42,538 nucleotides of DNA from a virus (taxonomy: Duplodnaviria; Heunggongvirae; Uroviricota; Caudoviricetes), in the IMG/VR virus record IMGVR_UViG_2537561945_000004, one strand, 5' to 3'. Within the stretch, counting starts at the first letter, position 1. Each line of letters begins with the position of its first letter. The notes beneath the pieces are model-generated. The model worked only from the letters and a program-made list of their open reading frames with translations, was not told the origin of the DNA and made no database searches. The translations under genes were made by a program, and so were the position numbers. This document shows positions 18,318 to 36,840 of this stretch, piece after piece.

Positions 18318-20788
18318 CAGAATCCCCCAACAGTAAGGCGAGGAATAACGGCAAGAACAGACAGCGGCAACGGGTCAAGCTGACGGATTTTTACACGCCC
18401 GTTTTTGCCCCAGTTACTGTCCAGTTTCACTTCTACTTTTCCGGTAGCATCATCAACAGGATCATCGTAGAACTCGAATTCACGCTGTGGATATTCGTAC
18501 CATTTACCGCCGGGCGTAGTCGCCCAGATGCCGCGACTGGCATTCACAACCAGAGTAACGGACGGGATCACCTGTTTTTTGTCCAGCAGCGTTTCCTGTC
18601 CGTTAATGTTGATATCCAGTGTTTCGAATTCAGCAGTTATTGGCAGGCCGATGTGCACAACAGCCCCCGGTGATTCCAGCGTGACGGCACCTCCGGAAAC
18701 CACTTTTTGTGGTTCCACGTTCGCATCAGAGAGGATGTTTACGGTCTGGCCTTCAAGATGAGACAAGCCGCCAAATGTCCGGCGCGCCATCTGCCAGTTC
18801 GTGGTGGCCACATTCCTGAGGGATGGCGGGACGTTCCTGTTAGCACGAACCACTACTGCGGTATTGCTGGTTACAGAAATAATGTCGCAACGTAATTCTT
18901 TTGACACTTCATCGCCAGTATCAGGATCAGCTCCGGTATAAGGGAACTGTAGTTGCGCACCAACATCACTACTGGTGAAGTACGCACCACCAGAAACACT
19001 GATTGTATATTCCGCGTGGTAATCCCATTCACCAGAACCACCAGTGATGGTCATCGTTCTGTCAGACGTATTTCTTCCATCATAGCTAAGGCCAGAATCA
19101 ACAAAGAAAGCATCTTCATCGCTGGTAAATAAACGGCTGGACAGTCTCTCGATGTATCTCACTGTTTGCCCGTTAACGGTTCTGTTAACGACGAAATACA
19201 CTGCATCTTCATTGCCTTCGCTGATACTGCATGTGCTTTCATATTTTCCGGTACTGGATTGTGGTGCCCATGCAAAAACCTGCTGATCACGCAAATAGGT
19301 CATCACCAGTAATTTACCGTCATCACGAATGCAGAAGGCACTGGAGTAAGGGACAATCGAGAAGCACCAGTCAACAATGCTGTGCTTCTGAAAAAGATGA
19401 TTGGCAAGGATAGTAAGGTCGTTCCCCTGATAGCCGTCAACATCGAATGAATAGGCCAGATCACGGACAACACTGCCTTTCTCCTGGACGAACAGAGCAA
19501 TATTCGCCACAGCAATTGGTGGGACGTTGCTTGAGCCATTTGATCCCTGAGAGCTGAATGCAAATGATGATGGGGTTAACACTTTGTTCTGGTCACCGGT
19601 GATGACGTACTCACCTCCGGAAGTCAGCGCCACCAGAGAACCAACATCAATCAGGTGACGGATCTCATTAACCTGACGCCCGGCATAGGTGTAGATAATT
19701 CTGTCGTCATCCTGCGTAGGATTGCTTTTGCCAAAATCCTTATAATCCCCGGTACGGCTGGCCCAGATAGTCTGAGGGAACGCAGTCGATGCGGCGAAGT
19801 AAAGACGTTGTTGATAATAAACAACAGTGCCAGGATAACCATTAACACTGTTCCAGGCATATTTAGCCCATTTATAGCTGGCATTATCCTCGCCCACGAC
19901 CTGCGAAGGGATATAGGAAATCACCTCGGCAGTTGCAGTAGTTCCATTTGCAGCAGTGATACGGGCAATGCCAAAACCACTGTGCAGATATTCCCACTCA
20001 ATGCCAGTATCATCATCACCGGATCCGCCCCAGCCATCCCATGATGTGCCTTCTGTATGCGAAGGGCGCAAAGTACCTGTTTTGCCTGCTGTAACGGCGC
20101 GATAGTAGTTACTGTCTGCACGGCGAATATCGCCAATCGACGTACTCTTACTGGTTTCCCATACCGGCACTGAATCCACTGCAGGCTGTTCCAGATAGAA
20201 CAATTTGCCTACCTGCTCCGCGCCAAAAATAGAGGCGCTTGCCGTTAACGTAATTGTCCCGGTGCTGGCGCTGGCATAAACCGTCACTGACTCGTCAATA
20301 TTGATATCTTCAAATGGCCCGTTCTTCGTTACCACATCAACCAGTTGCCAGTTGTCATGAGCATATCGGCGCAACTCTTTCGGCGGGTATGCCGGGTGAA
20401 CCAGCGTAAGCACGTCGGCGCTTTGCGTGAATTTAATTCGGAACAGATCGGCTTCAGTATATGGCGTGGCAATTTCATAAATAACATTGCTGCTGTTCAG
20501 CACCAACGCACCATCTTTGATAACGCGCATGTACTGGTGTCCGAACTCCAGAGCATAGGTCTGAACCGTCGAGAACTGGAACGGGATCAGGCGGCATTTC
20601 CGATTTGGGTATTTGGCGGCACCGACAAAACGCGTACCAGGTCGATTCTCAACGCCGCCATACTGCCGCACGATAAAGTTATCGCACTTGCGCAATGCTA
20701 CCTGGTACTTCGCCATGTCAATACGCCCGTACAACGACGGTCCAATCTCACCACCGGCAAAGCTGGGCTGGATCCAACTGATAGCCAT
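18317..20788 (-). CDS. Tail tubular protein B-like (nozzle; T7 gp12-like)
   Basis: 823 aa; N-terminal pattern IQPSFAGGEIGPSLYGRIDMAKYQ typical of podoviral tail-tube B proteins. Confidence 0.55.
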   Translation of the reverse strand: MAISWIQPSFAGGEIGPSLYGRIDMAKYQVALRKCDNFIVRQYGGVENRPGTRFVGAAKYPNRKCRLIPFQFSTVQTYALEFGHQYMRVIKDGALVLNSSNVIYEIATPYTEADLFRIKFTQSADVLTLVHPAYPPKELRRYAHDNWQLVDVVTKNGPFEDINIDESVTVYASASTGTITLTASASIFGAEQVGKLFYLEQPAVDSVPVWETSKSTSIGDIRRADSNYYRAVTAGKTGTLRPSHTEGTSWDGWGGSGDDDTGIEWEYLHSGFGIARITAANGTTATAEVISYIPSQVVGEDNASYKWAKYAWNSVNGYPGTVVYYQQRLYFAASTAFPQTIWASRTGDYKDFGKSNPTQDDDRIIYTYAGRQVNEIRHLIDVGSLVALTSGGEYVITGDQNKVLTPSSFAFSSQGSNGSSNVPPIAVANIALFVQEKGSVVRDLAYSFDVDGYQGNDLTILANHLFQKHSIVDWCFSIVPYSSAFCIRDDGKLLVMTYLRDQQVFAWAPQSSTGKYESTCSISEGNEDAVYFVVNRTVNGQTVRYIERLSSRLFTSDEDAFFVDSGLSYDGRNTSDRTMTITGGSGEWDYHAEYTISVSGGAYFTSSDVGAQLQFPYTGADPDTGDEVSKELRCDIISVTSNTAVVVRANRNVPPSLRNVATTNWQMARRTFGGLSHLEGQTVNILSDANVEPQKVVSGGAVTLESPGAVVHIGLPITAEFETLDININGQETLLDKKQVIPSVTLVVNASRGIWATTPGGKWYEYPQREFEFYDDPVDDATGKVEVKLDSNWGKNGRVKIRQLDPLPLSVLAVIPRLTVGGF

Positions 20789-26920: not shown

Positions 26921-26997
26921 GTGGCATTAGCTCAGTTGGACAGAGCAACCGCCTTCTAAGCGGTTGGTCGCAGGTTCGAATCCTGCATGCCACGCCA
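26921..26997 (+). tRNA. tRNA-Arg (anticodon UCU, reads AGA), phage-encoded
   Basis: 77 nt; acceptor stem GTGGCAT/ATGCCAC, discriminator G then CCA; anticodon arm ACCGC-CTTCTAA-GCGGT; T-loop GGTTCGAATCC; sequence differs from the E. coli argU I recall. Confidence 0.85.
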
Positions 26998-35586: not shown

Positions 35587-35665
35587 GGTAAGCCCTGTTA
35601 TTAGTATTGGGATTACGGTTATTTTGTGCTGACACAAAAAAAAGATCAACCATATTTGGTTTTTT

Positions 35666-35681
35666 ATTACCTTTGAGGTAC
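35666..35681. promoter_or_regulatory. Operator-like palindrome variant ATTACC-TTTGA-GGTACG
   Basis: One-mismatch variant between the Cro-like terminator and the zinc-finger gene. Confidence 0.35.
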
Positions 35682-35687
35682 GAATAG

Positions 35688-35714
35688 ATATGAAAAGACC
35701 GCCGGATGGCGGTC
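35688..35714 (-). terminator. Terminator after Cro-like gene (tR1-like)
   Basis: On the minus strand GACCGCC-ATCC-GGCGGTC followed by TTTTCA. Confidence 0.5.
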
Positions 35715-35736
35715 TACAGAGGGTTGTGGCTGGATA

Positions 35737-35967
35737 TCATGAGTAGAAGAAGTATGCCAGTTCTGCTTTTGAGCGCAGCCATTGTCTTGTTTTACAGGCT
35801 TTAAAAAGCCCATTCATCAATACCTTACCTGGCATTTTGCGCTTACCTGTTAAGTGAGTCTGGATATAGTGACTCGTCGTTCCGGCTTCCTGTGCGAAGG
35901 CTTCACGCTCATCCGGAGTAAGTGCAAGCCAGTGCTTTTTGAAATCGAAATGTCCGTTATCGCTCAT
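35737..35967 (-). CDS. Cro-like small HTH regulator
   Basis: 76 aa, HTH-like segment EAGTTSHYIQTHLTGKRKMPGKVL; divergent from the repressor-like gene across an operator-bearing intergenic region. Confidence 0.5.
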   Translation of the reverse strand: MSDNGHFDFKKHWLALTPDEREAFAQEAGTTSHYIQTHLTGKRKMPGKVLMNGLFKACKTRQWLRSKAELAYFFYS

Positions 35968-36034
35968 AGCTATTGCCTGATATTTATTTCAGATAATAAA
36001 TATTCACCCATAAGGTAACAAAAATCAAGGATAG

Positions 36035-36066
36035 TTACCTGTGGGGTGCATTTACCTGTTGGGTAA
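36035..36066. promoter_or_regulatory. Immunity-region operators: TTACC-TGTGG-GGTGC (variant) and TTACC-TGTTG-GGTAA (perfect), plus half-site AGGTAAC at 36013
   Basis: Located in the 154-bp divergent intergenic region between the Cro-like and repressor-like genes. Confidence 0.55.
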
Positions 36067-36121
36067 TATTGCTTTAAATTGAATCATCTACTGATTCATA
36101 TATGAGGCGATTTTCCAGAAA

Positions 36122-36706
36122 ATGAAAAGTATCCAGGACGTCCGCAGGCAAAATCTCAACGACTTGATCGACCGTGAATGCAATGGTGTTCAGACGCGGA
36201 TGGCAGAAAAACTTGGAACTCAGGCAAATCTGGTAAACCGCTGGGCTCTTGGCAAGAAGGTTATCGGCGACCAGGTTGCACGAAAAATTGAAGCTGCCGC
36301 CAATAAACCCCGTAACTGGCTTGATATTGATCGTTCGCTTTCTCAGGAGGGTTTTCAGCCTGTCGGCCCGAGCGATATAGGTCAGCTGGCGGCTCACAAC
36401 CTGGAACGCTGGATGAGCGAAAGCCGCGACCTTTCAACACAGGGAAAACTTCACCGCGCATCCGGCGTCGCCCAGGTGACAATCAGCCGCCTGTTAAACA
36501 ATGAGGTCAGCGTTTCCATTTCCACCCTGGAGAATGTTGCATCCGCATTCGGGCGTCACGGCTATGAATTACTGATTCACCCGCACGACCCTGCGACCAT
36601 CAACTATGATCGCTCGCGCTACGCATTGTTACCCGAAACCGAGAAAGCAAAGATCGAAAGTTACATTGAATTTGTCATCAACCAGAACGAAAAAAACAAA
36701 CAATAA
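36122..36706 (+). CDS. Prophage repressor candidate: two HTH (XRE-like) domains, no S24 peptidase domain
   Basis: 194 aa; HTH segments MAEKLGTQANLVNRWALGKKVIGDQVARKIE and LHRASGVAQVTISRLLNNEVSVSISTLENVASAF; no Ser-Lys autocleavage module visible; divergent from Cro-like gene; followed by terminator. Confidence 0.55.
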   Translation: MKSIQDVRRQNLNDLIDRECNGVQTRMAEKLGTQANLVNRWALGKKVIGDQVARKIEAAANKPRNWLDIDRSLSQEGFQPVGPSDIGQLAAHNLERWMSESRDLSTQGKLHRASGVAQVTISRLLNNEVSVSISTLENVASAFGRHGYELLIHPHDPATINYDRSRYALLPETEKAKIESYIEFVINQNEKNKQ

Positions 36707-36727
36707 AACCATATTTTTCAGTAAGTA

Positions 36728-36751
36728 AGCCGCCTTATGGCGGCTTTTTTA
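36728..36751 (+). terminator. Rho-independent terminator after repressor gene
   Basis: AGCCGCC-TTAT-GGCGGCT followed by TTTTTT. Confidence 0.65.
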
Positions 36752-36762
36752 TTGTCTATTCG

Positions 36763-36779
36763 ATTACCTAACGGGTAAT
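36763..36779. promoter_or_regulatory. Operator-like palindrome ATTACC-TAACG-GGTAAT
   Basis: Perfect 17-bp palindrome just upstream of the early-left promoter. Confidence 0.5.
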
Positions 36780-36797
36780 TTTTTTAACTCATATCTA

Positions 36798-36840
36798 TTG
36801 ACATCAAACCATATACGCATAATTATTACCTCAACGGTAA
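36798..36840 (+). promoter_or_regulatory. Early-left promoter (-35 TTGACA 36798-36803, -10 AATTAT/TAATTA about 36820-36826) with overlapping operator TTACC-TCAAC-GGTAA (36826-36840)
   Basis: Consensus -35, 16-17 bp spacer, AT-rich -10, operator palindrome at -10/+1, followed by GAGG RBS and ATG 36860. Confidence 0.5.

What the first reader, a model, noticed from the sequence alone, without database searches (positions are those of the whole stretch)
35737..36706. Immunity region built from a 2xHTH repressor and a Cro-like protein, with a 7-codon upstream ORF overlapping the repressor start
The divergent intergenic region (35968-36121) carries one perfect and two imperfect TTACC-N5-GGTAA sites. 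The repressor gene has a poor Shine-Dalgarno but is preceded by a mini-ORF (ATG 36101, MRRFSRK) whose stop overlaps the repressor ATG (AATGA), suggesting translational coupling. The repressor has duplicated HTH domains and no visible protease domain.
Basis: partly seen in the sequence, partly recalled or inferred. Interest (0 to 1): 0.4.

Follow-up and report, generated by a model that had tools for sequence, protein, structure and literature searches.

The report
Known phiV10-type phage repressor switch
This is the ordinary, already described lysis-lysogeny switch of a phiV10/epsilon15-type E. coli prophage, whose non-cleavable two-domain repressor is switched off by a separate SOS-controlled antirepressor, and the tiny upstream ORF is most likely a chance feature.

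Summary
The window is a phiV10-like Uetakevirus (98% nt identity). One perfect and two imperfect TTACC-N5-GGTAA sites lie between a divergent 76-aa Cro-position gene and a 194-aa repressor. A 7-codon ORF (ATG at 36102, not 36101) ends in an ATGA overlap with the repressor start.

The repressor is 99.5% identical to the phiV10/ZX5 repressor. It matches the solved SPC32H Rep over its full length (PDB 5D50, E 4.9e-41). It has no S24 protease domain.

The SPC32H induction partner is also in the window: an Ant homologue (5534-5791, 88% identity) behind a canonical LexA box and a Rep operator. The operator motif is already annotated as the repressor site in the epsilon15 GenBank record, and ten perfect copies lie in the window.

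Translational coupling is not supported:
- A uORF of this kind arises in about 20% of shuffles.
- It has no Shine-Dalgarno of its own.
- It is absent or in another frame in relatives.
- Its ATG is ACG in 5 of 80 near-identical prophages that keep rep and cro intact.

Verdict: already known, low interest.

The parts
36122..36706 (+). rep: 194-aa prophage repressor of the SPC32H Rep family. N-terminal HTH DNA-binding domain about aa 1-70; C-terminal HTH_3-fold domain about aa 86-194.
   Evidence: PDB 5D50_A E 4.9e-41 over aa 1-190 and 5D4Z (C-terminal domain) E 4e-20. Pfam HTH_3 at aa 106-147 and no S24. 99.5% identical to the phiV10/ZX5 repressor. Start supported by the invariant ATGAAAAG in 7 phages.
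35737..35967 (-). Cro-position gene (76 aa), homologue of phiV10 p41, epsilon15 gp39 and SPC32H_042.
   Evidence: 76% identical to SPC32H_042. PHROG 35 E 5.6e-13. AF2 model with five helices, pLDDT 83.8; best Foldseek hits are lambda-repressor-like HTH domains with TM 0.54-0.63 but E>1.
36052..36066 (.). Operator O1, perfect TTACC-N5-GGTAA, nearest to rep.
   Evidence: Position and half-sites conserved in 7 phages. No half-site variation in 80 loci.
36035..36049 (.). Operator O2 (TTACCTGTGGGGTGC, 2 mismatches), 17 bp centre-to-centre from O1.
   Evidence: Population variation is confined to its N5 spacer, 36040-36044.
36004..36018 (.). Operator O3 (TCACCCATAAGGTAA, 1 mismatch), lying inside the candidate cro promoter.
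   Evidence: Overlaps TTGTTA-17-TATTAT on the minus strand.
35993..36021 (-). Candidate PR-like promoter for cro (TTGTTA-17-TATTAT). An alternative -35, TTGATT at 36023-36028, lies in a block invariant across 7 phages.
   Evidence: 9 of 12 matches; AAAAATCAA invariant. Consensus match only; not mapped.
36102..36125 (+). 7-codon upstream ORF MRRFSRK*, ATGA overlap with rep. Judged incidental.
   Evidence: sequence. (p about 0.2, no SD). (not conserved; ATG to ACG in 5 of 80 loci).
36104..36107 (+). GAGG, the only SD-like element for rep, 14 nt upstream of the ATG.
   Evidence: A purine/G-rich element sits at the aligned position in all lineages.
36727..36752 (+). Rho-independent terminator after rep.
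   Evidence: Annotated as a terminator at the equivalent position in phiV10.
36764..36840 (+). OL/PL-like region: perfect operators at 36764-36778 and 36826-36840 flanking and overlapping the promoter TTGACA-17-AATTAT (36798-36826) of the recombination operon.
   Evidence: The equivalent sites are annotated 'repressor' in epsilon15.
35696..35715 (-). Terminator after cro, followed by a 1-mismatch operator at 35667-35681.
   Evidence: phiV10 annotation.
5534..5791 (+). ant: 85-aa antirepressor homologue, the predicted inducer that inactivates Rep.
   Evidence: 88% identical to SPC32H Ant, tblastn E 1e-48.
5495..5514 (.). LexA box TACTGTATAAATATACAGTT just upstream of ant.
   Evidence: CTGT-N8-ACAG core at 5497-5512. 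Conserved in phiV10, TL-2011b, epsilon15 and SPC32H.
5443..5457 (.). Perfect Rep operator upstream of ant.
   Evidence: The equivalent site is annotated 'repressor' in epsilon15 at 19895-19911.

Best explanation
Window 35737-36706, with its flanking operators and terminators, is the lysis-lysogeny switch of a phiV10-type Uetakevirus prophage. It belongs to the characterised SPC32H/epsilon15 Rep-Ant system.

Rep (36122-36706) has an N-terminal HTH domain that recognises the 15-17 bp palindrome (A)TTACC-N5-GGTAA(T). Its C-terminal HTH-fold domain serves oligomerisation and antirepressor docking, not proteolysis. Rep occupies three sites between rep and cro, with O3 inside the cro promoter. It also occupies two sites at the leftward-operon promoter downstream of rep, and single or paired sites in front of most other transcription units, including ant.

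Rep is not cleaved during the SOS response. Instead LexA inactivation derepresses the small antirepressor Ant (5534-5791), which binds Rep, breaks up its DNA-binding oligomer and releases the lytic promoters. The 76-aa HTH protein made from the cro promoter then plays the Cro role.

Rep is translated directly from its own ATG. That ATG sits in an unstructured, A-rich initiation region with only a distant GAGG. This weak initiation signal is conserved in the family. The 7-codon uORF has no role.

Shown here: homology, architecture, operator statistics and conservation, presence of Ant with its LexA box, and non-conservation of the uORF. Taken from the literature: tetramer formation, Ant-mediated disassembly, and repression by the identical ZX5 protein. 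Inferred: which promoter makes rep mRNA, the Cro function, and the mode of rep translation.
For: - Identity of the phage: 98% nt identity to phiV10 and relatives.
- Rep: full-length match to SPC32H Rep 5D50 (E 4.9e-41) and to its C-terminal-domain crystal form 5D4Z. It is 99.5% identical to the phiV10 and ZX5 repressors. No S24 domain.
- Experiment on the ZX5 repressor (99.5% identical to this Rep): overexpression abolished free phage and cut endolysin and holin transcripts by 99.97-99.99%; a Bro-N antirepressor promoted lysis (PMC9782041).
- SPC32H mechanism as summarised in PMC9638917: Rep binds DNA as a tetramer, and tetrameric Ant binds two Rep dimers and breaks the tetramer.
- Operators: 10 perfect sites, which by my placement against the ORF maps lie between genes or just upstream of gene starts. 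The same motif is annotated 'protein_bind repressor' at 7 sites in epsilon15. Positions are conserved in 7 phages. In 80 near-identical loci, variation falls only in the N5 spacers, never in the half-sites.
- Ant: 88% identity, LexA box and operator conserved in 5 phages.
- Against any need for coupling: the uORF has no SD and p is about 0.2, the initiation region is unstructured with z +2.15, and the uORF is not conserved.
Against: - Rep is only 42% identical to SPC32H Rep (37% in the C-terminal domain that docks Ant) while Ant is 88% identical. The Rep-Ant interaction in this phage is therefore inferred, not shown.
- The two primary SPC32H papers and the epsilon15 genome paper could not be read here. 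Mechanistic detail rests on a secondary summary and on my memory of them.
- The rep promoter is not identified. The one positionally conserved candidate (TTTACC-18-TAAATT) would put the uATG inside the mRNA.
- The perfect operator is on the rep side and the imperfect one lies over the cro promoter, the reverse of lambda. The occupancy logic is not understood.
- Cro function is assigned from position and a weak fold match only.
Confidence: 0.88

Rival explanations
1. The 7-codon uORF (36102-36125) is translated, and ribosomes terminating at its TGA re-initiate at the overlapping rep ATG. This would compensate for the poor Shine-Dalgarno.
For: The ATGA overlap exists. The same 7-codon arrangement is kept in BUCT554 and Erwinia dacicola (MRRFTRA*) and in Superficieibacter (MRNFYRQ*). 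An ATG sits at the aligned column in epsilon15, SPC32H and Citrobacter. The conserved promoter candidate TTTACC-18-TAAATT would place the uATG about 15 nt into the mRNA.
Against: The uORF has no SD (0 kcal/mol), so it cannot recruit ribosomes better than rep itself. 20% of shuffles give such a uORF, and the stop follows automatically from the Met-Lys start. There is no ATG in Tyrion, the Klebsiella phages or Scandinavium. In epsilon15, SPC32H and Citrobacter the ATG is 19 nt upstream, in another frame, and that ORF ends inside rep. ATG is ACG in 5 of 80 near-identical prophages with intact rep and cro. The 36090-36114 stretch is the most variable part of the intergenic region outside the operator spacers. 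The start region is unstructured.
Confidence: 0.06
2. A lambda-type CI repressor: RecA-stimulated self-cleavage of the repressor itself induces the prophage.
For: The layout is lambda-like: divergent rep and cro, tripartite OR, a terminator, then OL/PL and recombination genes.
Against: No Peptidase_S24 or LexA-like domain at E<=0.1. The C-terminal half is an HTH_3-fold domain homologous to the SPC32H Rep C-terminal domain. A LexA-controlled Ant is present.
Confidence: 0.02
3. The 194-aa protein is a toxin-antitoxin antidote or a general XRE regulator (one record calls it VapI) and not the prophage repressor.
For: The annotation in phage BP9 reads 'plasmid maintenance system antidote protein VapI'. 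There are weak HigA and HipB NCBIfam matches far below cut-off.
Against: No toxin partner is adjacent. The protein matches a solved phage repressor over its full length. Overexpression of the ZX5 protein (99.5% identical to this Rep) blocks lytic growth. Its operator motif is distributed over the phage's intergenic regions.
Confidence: 0.02

Closest known systems
Rep/Ant switch of Salmonella phage SPC32H (Kim & Ryu 2013 J Virol; Kim et al. 2016 PNAS; PDB 5D50 and 5D4Z)
   Same: Full-length homologous repressor with the same two-domain layout and no protease domain. Same rep-cro-operator synteny. Same TTACC-N5-GGTAA operators at OR, OL and ant. Ant homologue (88%) behind a LexA box at the same place, divergent from the tailspike gene.
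   Different: Rep is only 42% identical overall (53% in the N-terminal domain, 37% in the C-terminal domain). Operator spacers at OR and OL are G/C-containing here and A/T-rich in SPC32H. Tetramerisation and Ant binding were not tested for this protein.
Repressor of phiV10 (PhiV10p40) and of vB_EcoP_ZX5 (ORF21)
   Same: 99.5% identical protein and 98% identical DNA, uORF included. The phiV10 record already notes 'two helix-turn-helix motifs'. ZX5 ORF21 was shown to block the lytic cycle when overexpressed.
   Different: Essentially nothing within the finding's coordinates. The accessory antirepressor region (5800-7700) is mosaic between these phages.
epsilon15 gp38 repressor and its annotated operators
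   Same: Same operator core. The GenBank features 'protein_bind, repressor, lysogeny' are (A)TTACC-N5-GGTAAT at promoters across the genome, as in this window.
   Different: 42% identical repressor. The upstream ATG lies in another frame.
Lambda CI/Cro/OR
   Same: Divergent repressor and cro genes, three operators, weak translation signals on the repressor gene, and a second operator cluster at the other early promoter.
   Different: No S24 autocleavage domain. Induction goes through an antirepressor. The best operator is on the repressor-gene side and the imperfect one lies over the cro promoter. Operators are also spread over many other promoters.
Antirepressor-induced prophages with non-cleavable repressors (Gifsy-1/3 GfoR/GfhR, coliphage 186 Tum, N15 AntC; from my own knowledge)
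   Same: The same logic: LexA controls a small antirepressor rather than the repressor being cleaved.
   Different: No sequence relationship between those proteins and Rep or Ant was tested or found here.

Membership tests
SPC32H-type Rep repressor family | Full-length sequence homology to SPC32H Rep | tested here: met
   phmmer against PDB: 5D50_A E 4.9e-41 over aa 1-190. 42% identity.
SPC32H-type Rep repressor family | N-terminal HTH domain plus a C-terminal (about 92-198) oligomerisation domain, and no S24 peptidase | tested here: met
   5D4Z C-terminal-domain match E 4e-20. Pfam HTH_3 at aa 106-147, sub-threshold HTH at aa 21-67, no S24.
SPC32H-type Rep repressor family | Operators of the type ATTACC-N5-GGTAAT at OR, OL and other promoters | tested here: met
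   10 perfect sites in the window; 10 in SPC32H and 11 in epsilon15.
SPC32H-type Rep repressor family | A cognate small Ant antirepressor under LexA control | tested here: met
   Ant homologue at 5534-5791 (88% identity) with a LexA box at 5495-5514.
SPC32H-type Rep repressor family | Rep tetramer binds DNA; Ant tetramer binds Rep dimers and disassembles the complex | not testable with these tools
   Biochemical property, known for SPC32H only (summary in PMC9638917).
Lambda CI / LexA-type cleavable repressors | C-terminal S24 peptidase domain with a Ser-Lys dyad and a cleavage site | tested here: not met
   No Peptidase_S24 match at E<=0.1. The C-terminal half is an HTH_3-fold domain.
Lambda CI / LexA-type cleavable repressors | Divergent repressor and cro genes with a tripartite operator | tested here: met
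Translationally coupled uORF-gene pair | Stop of the upstream ORF overlaps or abuts the downstream start | tested here: met
   ATGA at 36122-36125.
Translationally coupled uORF-gene pair | The upstream ORF has its own efficient initiation signal | tested here: not met
   No anti-SD complementarity within 22 nt upstream of 36102.
Translationally coupled uORF-gene pair | The arrangement is conserved among orthologous loci | tested here: not met
   Absent in Tyrion, the Klebsiella phages and Scandinavium; other frame in the epsilon15 clade; ACG in 5 of 80 near-identical loci.
Translationally coupled uORF-gene pair | The downstream start is masked by structure or otherwise depends on upstream translation | tested here: not met
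   The region 36085-36175 folds less stably than all 200 shuffles, z +2.15. Dependence itself needs an experiment.
Cro/CI-type HTH (Cro role) | Lambda-repressor-like all-alpha HTH fold | tested here: inconclusive
   AF2 model pLDDT 83.8 with five helices. The top Foldseek hits are 434 repressor DBD, YdaS N-terminal domain, C-proteins and P22 c2 (TM 0.54-0.63), but all have E>1. No Pfam, NCBIfam or PDB sequence hit.
Cro/CI-type HTH (Cro role) | Binds the same operators and represses the repressor promoter | not testable with these tools
   Needs EMSA or reporter assays.

The most novel reading that the evidence does not exclude
In the phiV10 subclade only, the upstream ATG at 36102 is used on a roughly 35-nt rep leader made from the conserved TTTACC-18-TAAATT promoter candidate. 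It would act as a weak out-of-frame start that tunes how much Rep is made, by coupling or by competition. The natural ACG variants would then be lysogens with a different repressor set-point and a different spontaneous induction rate.
Probability: 0.06. Interest if true: 0.3.

Novelty: already known. Interest (0 to 1): 0.1.

Why it matters
It matters little for discovery. The region is a textbook copy of a switch that already has crystal structures (SPC32H Rep and Rep-Ant), annotated operators (epsilon15) and a functional test of a 99.5% identical repressor (ZX5).

Its practical value is annotation. The 'helix-turn-helix protein' and the 'hypothetical protein' of phiV10-like E. coli O157 prophages can be labelled Rep and Cro-position regulator. 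The small gene next to the tailspike can be labelled the LexA-controlled Ant. The TTACC-N5-GGTAA sites mark the Rep regulon.

The open questions are narrow:
- Where rep mRNA starts.
- Why the best operator lies on the rep side.
- How a highly conserved Ant (88%) serves strongly diverged Reps (42%).

Tried and rejected
1. Reading the primary SPC32H papers (J Virol 2013, PNAS 2016) and the epsilon15 genome paper: none is held in the library. I used a secondary summary, the GenBank feature tables and my own memory, marked as such.

2. Internal duplication of the two HTH halves: BLASTP found no similarity, so 'duplicated' cannot be claimed.

3. Sequence-based family assignment of the Cro-position protein: no hit in Pfam, NCBIfam or PDB sequences. 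Only PHROG 35 and a weak fold match were found.

4. Locating the rep promoter by consensus. The standard scan found none on the + strand between O1 and rep. A relaxed scan over 9 orthologues gave one positionally conserved but weak candidate, TTTACC-18-TAAATT. It also gave an epsilon15-clade-only TACAAT 4 nt before the ATG, which is too close to serve rep. Unresolved.

5. The IMG/VR scan returned 80 loci, all 99% identical. They were useless for deep conservation but useful as a population sample.

6. Toxin-antitoxin (VapI/HigA) reading: rejected. The matches are sub-threshold and there is no toxin gene.

Full report
**What the window is.** The 1.3 kb around the finding is 98% identical to Escherichia phage phiV10 and about twenty relatives (PAS61, ZX5, O157 typing phages 9 and 10, TL-2011b). 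It is about 77% identical to Enterobacter phages Tyrion and BUCT554. These are Uetakeviruses, the epsilon15-like temperate podoviruses.

The gene order around the finding is as follows:
- Leftward from the intergenic region: a Cro-position gene, a terminator, a small conserved gene, a DnaT/O-like replication gene and a lambda-P-like gene.
- Rightward: the repressor gene, a terminator, a second operator/promoter region, then small ORFs, an exonuclease and RecT.

**Checking the observation.**
- The three TTACC-N5-GGTAA sites are at 36052-36066 (perfect), 36035-36049 (two mismatches) and 36004-36018 (one mismatch).
- The motif is not a chance palindrome. The window carries ten perfect copies, where ten specified bases predict about 0.04.
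- The mini-ORF is real but starts at 36102, not 36101. It reads ATG AGG CGA TTT TCC AGA AAA TGA, and its TGA overlaps the rep ATG at 36122.
- The rep Shine-Dalgarno is indeed poor. The only complementarity to the anti-SD is GAGG at 36104-36107, 14 nt from the ATG. Neighbouring genes have stronger matches at 7 nt.
- Pfam finds HTH_3 at residues 106-147 and a sub-threshold YdaS/HTH_3 match at 21-67. It finds no S24 peptidase.
- The two halves show no BLASTP similarity to each other. 'Two HTH-fold domains' holds; 'duplicated' is not demonstrated.

**What the repressor is.**
- A search of solved structures gives a full-length match to the repressor of Salmonella phage SPC32H (5D50, E 4.9e-41, residues 1-190). 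It also matches that protein's C-terminal-domain crystal form (5D4Z, E 4e-20).
- The protein is 99.5% identical to the repressors of phiV10 and vB_EcoP_ZX5.
- The phiV10 record already says 'putative transcriptional repressor; two helix-turn-helix motifs'. The epsilon15 record cites 5D50 for its own repressor.
- For ZX5, overexpressing this repressor abolished free phage and reduced endolysin and holin transcripts by more than 99.9%. Overexpressing a Bro-N antirepressor favoured lysis (PMC9782041).
- For SPC32H, a later paper summarises the mechanism. Rep binds DNA as a tetramer whose DNA-binding dimers come from different dimers. Tetrameric Ant binds two Rep dimers and breaks the tetramer (PMC9638917).
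- From my own memory of the primary papers, which I could not open: Rep is not cleaved in the SOS response, Ant is repressed by LexA, and the C-terminal domain (92-198) is the tetramerisation and Ant-docking module.

**The induction arm is in the window.**
- tblastn with SPC32H Ant finds an 85-aa ORF at 5534-5791 (88% identity, E 1e-48).
- It is preceded by a perfect CTGT-N8-ACAG LexA box (TACTGTATAAATATACAGTT, 5495-5514) and a perfect Rep operator at 5443-5457. It is divergent from the tailspike gene, exactly as in SPC32H.
- The operator, a conserved GCTGGATAG block and the LexA box are kept in phiV10, TL-2011b, epsilon15 and SPC32H.

This explains the 'no visible protease domain' without anything new.

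**Operators.**
- The epsilon15 GenBank record annotates seven 'protein_bind, repressor, lysogeny' features. Their sequences are (A)TTACC-N5-GGTAAT.
- epsilon15 has 11 perfect cores, SPC32H has 10 and this window has 10.
- By my placement against the ORF maps, the window's perfect sites all lie between genes or just upstream of a gene start:
  - ant (5443)
  - a second antirepressor module (6563, 6656)
  - upstream of the portal block (26585)
  - upstream of the terminase genes (30121)
  - between the replication and DUF1064 genes (33659, 33721)
  - OR (36052)
  - the early leftward promoter (36764, 36826)
- In the alignment of seven phages the three OR sites keep their positions, and TTACC and GGT are invariant.
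- In 80 near-identical IMG/VR loci the 154-nt intergenic region varies at only 12 positions. Five lie in operator N5 spacers and seven lie in 36090-36114. None lies in a half-site.
- A sigma-70-like promoter for cro (TTGTTA-17-TATTAT) overlaps O3. TTGACA-17-AATTAT at 36798-36826 is flanked and overlapped by the two downstream operators.
- Terminators follow both rep and cro, as annotated in phiV10.

**The upstream mini-ORF.** Five lines of evidence argue against a function.
1. Chance. Because rep begins Met-Lys (ATGAAA, invariant in all relatives), a TGA always overlaps the start. Any in-frame upstream ATG therefore makes such a uORF. 20% of dinucleotide shuffles of the 60 nt upstream do so.
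2. The uORF has no anti-SD complementarity at all. It cannot load ribosomes better than rep itself.
3. Comparative data. The 7-codon form is kept in BUCT554/Erwinia dacicola and in Superficieibacter. Tyrion (TTAAGAG), the Klebsiella phages and Scandinavium have no ATG there. In epsilon15, SPC32H and Citrobacter the ATG lies 19 nt upstream, in another frame, and that ORF ends inside rep.
4. Population data. 5 of 80 near-identical prophages carry ACG instead of ATG yet keep intact rep and cro. The leader stretch that contains the uORF is the least constrained part of the region outside the operator spacers.
5. The RNA around the start is less structured than all 200 shuffles (z +2.15). There is no masked start for coupling to open.

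What is conserved at that place is a short G-rich purine element (GAGG, GAGA, AGAG, AGG, GGG, GGA) 13-16 nt before the ATG. The uATG overlaps it. The ATG is therefore best read as incidental to that element.

One caveat remains: the rep promoter is not identified. The only positionally conserved candidate (TTTACC-18-TAAATT, 36051-36080, 8 of 12 matches) would start the mRNA near 36087 and include the uATG. The coupling model keeps a small residual probability for that reason.

**The Cro-position protein.**
- It has no Pfam, NCBIfam or PDB sequence match, and its 48 database relatives that carry a name are all called 'hypothetical'.
- It matches PHROG 35, 'transcriptional repressor' (E 5.6e-13), and is 76% identical to SPC32H_042.
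- An AlphaFold model (pLDDT 83.8) has five helices.
- Its best Foldseek matches are the 434 repressor DNA-binding domain, the YdaS N-terminal domain, controller C-proteins and P22 c2 (TM 0.54-0.63). For so small a domain the E-values are all above 1.

'Cro-like' is reasonable but rests mainly on position.

**Differences from lambda and open points.**
- The perfect operator lies next to rep, and the imperfect one lies over the cro promoter. This pattern is conserved across the family and is the reverse of lambda OR.
- Rep has diverged to 42% identity from SPC32H Rep (53% in the N-terminal domain, with the NLVNRW stretch — by my reading the recognition helix — conserved; 37% in the C-terminal domain). 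Ant (88%), Cro (76%) and the operator half-sites are conserved.

These are modest curiosities within a known system.

**Verdict.** The immunity-region and non-cleavable-repressor reading is right but already known. The translational-coupling idea is not supported.

Noticed in passing
window 6563-7651: A second antirepressor module. Two perfect Rep operators (6563-6577, 6656-6670) are followed by Rfam matches to the isrK Hfq-binding sRNA (6707-6783, 67.7 bits) and the P1/P7-type C4 antisense RNA (6808-6891, 63.6 bits). Next comes a Bro-N ORF (6925-7251) and an ORF (7337-7651) whose product is 40% identical to SPC32H Ant. This looks like a Bro-N/Ant-domain fusion under c4-type antisense control.
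   Followed up: partly
window 7225-7260: The Bro-N/Ant-like gene is one intact 231-aa ORF in phage TL-2011b. Here it is split into two frames: TIPLPLS* here against TIPYRFRKWVTGEVLPQIRRTGSY in TL-2011b. This looks like an extra C in a C-run (my reading of the sequence, not aligned at the nucleotide level). It is a pseudogene or a sequencing error.
   Followed up: partly
window 5443, 6563, 6656, 26585, 30121, 33659, 33721, 36052, 36764, 36826: Ten perfect TTACC-N5-GGTAA sites are spread over the whole phage. By my placement they lie between genes or just upstream of gene starts (terminase, portal block, replication/late junction, ant). Rep probably represses most transcription units directly, as the epsilon15 annotation implies.
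   Followed up: partly
window 35629-35681: Between the cro terminator and the next gene lies a 1-mismatch operator (35667-35681). A plus-strand promoter-like site (CTGACA-16-CATATT, 35629-35656) would read antisense through cro towards rep, like lambda PRE. By eye there is also a minus-strand TTGATC-17-CAAAAT candidate for the replication operon (and my reading).
   Followed up: no
window 36122-36706 versus 5534-5791 and 35737-35967: The components have diverged unevenly from SPC32H: Rep 42% (C-terminal domain 37%), Cro-position protein 76%, Ant 88%, operator half-sites identical. This suggests that Ant recognises conserved Rep features, or that modules have been exchanged. It also raises the possibility that phiV10-type and epsilon15-type repressors recognise the same operators.
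   Followed up: partly
window 26921-26994: A tRNA gene on the plus strand (Rfam tRNA, 73.3 bits). It sits in the same region where SPC32H carries tRNA-Arg.
   Followed up: no
L013-L017 (Paraburkholderia, Hydrogenovibrio, Thiomicrospira): Distant genomes encode proteins matching only the Rep N-terminal domain (residues 1-70, 38-40% identity) and beginning with the same MKSI motif. The DNA-binding module therefore occurs with other C-terminal parts outside the Enterobacterales.
   Followed up: no
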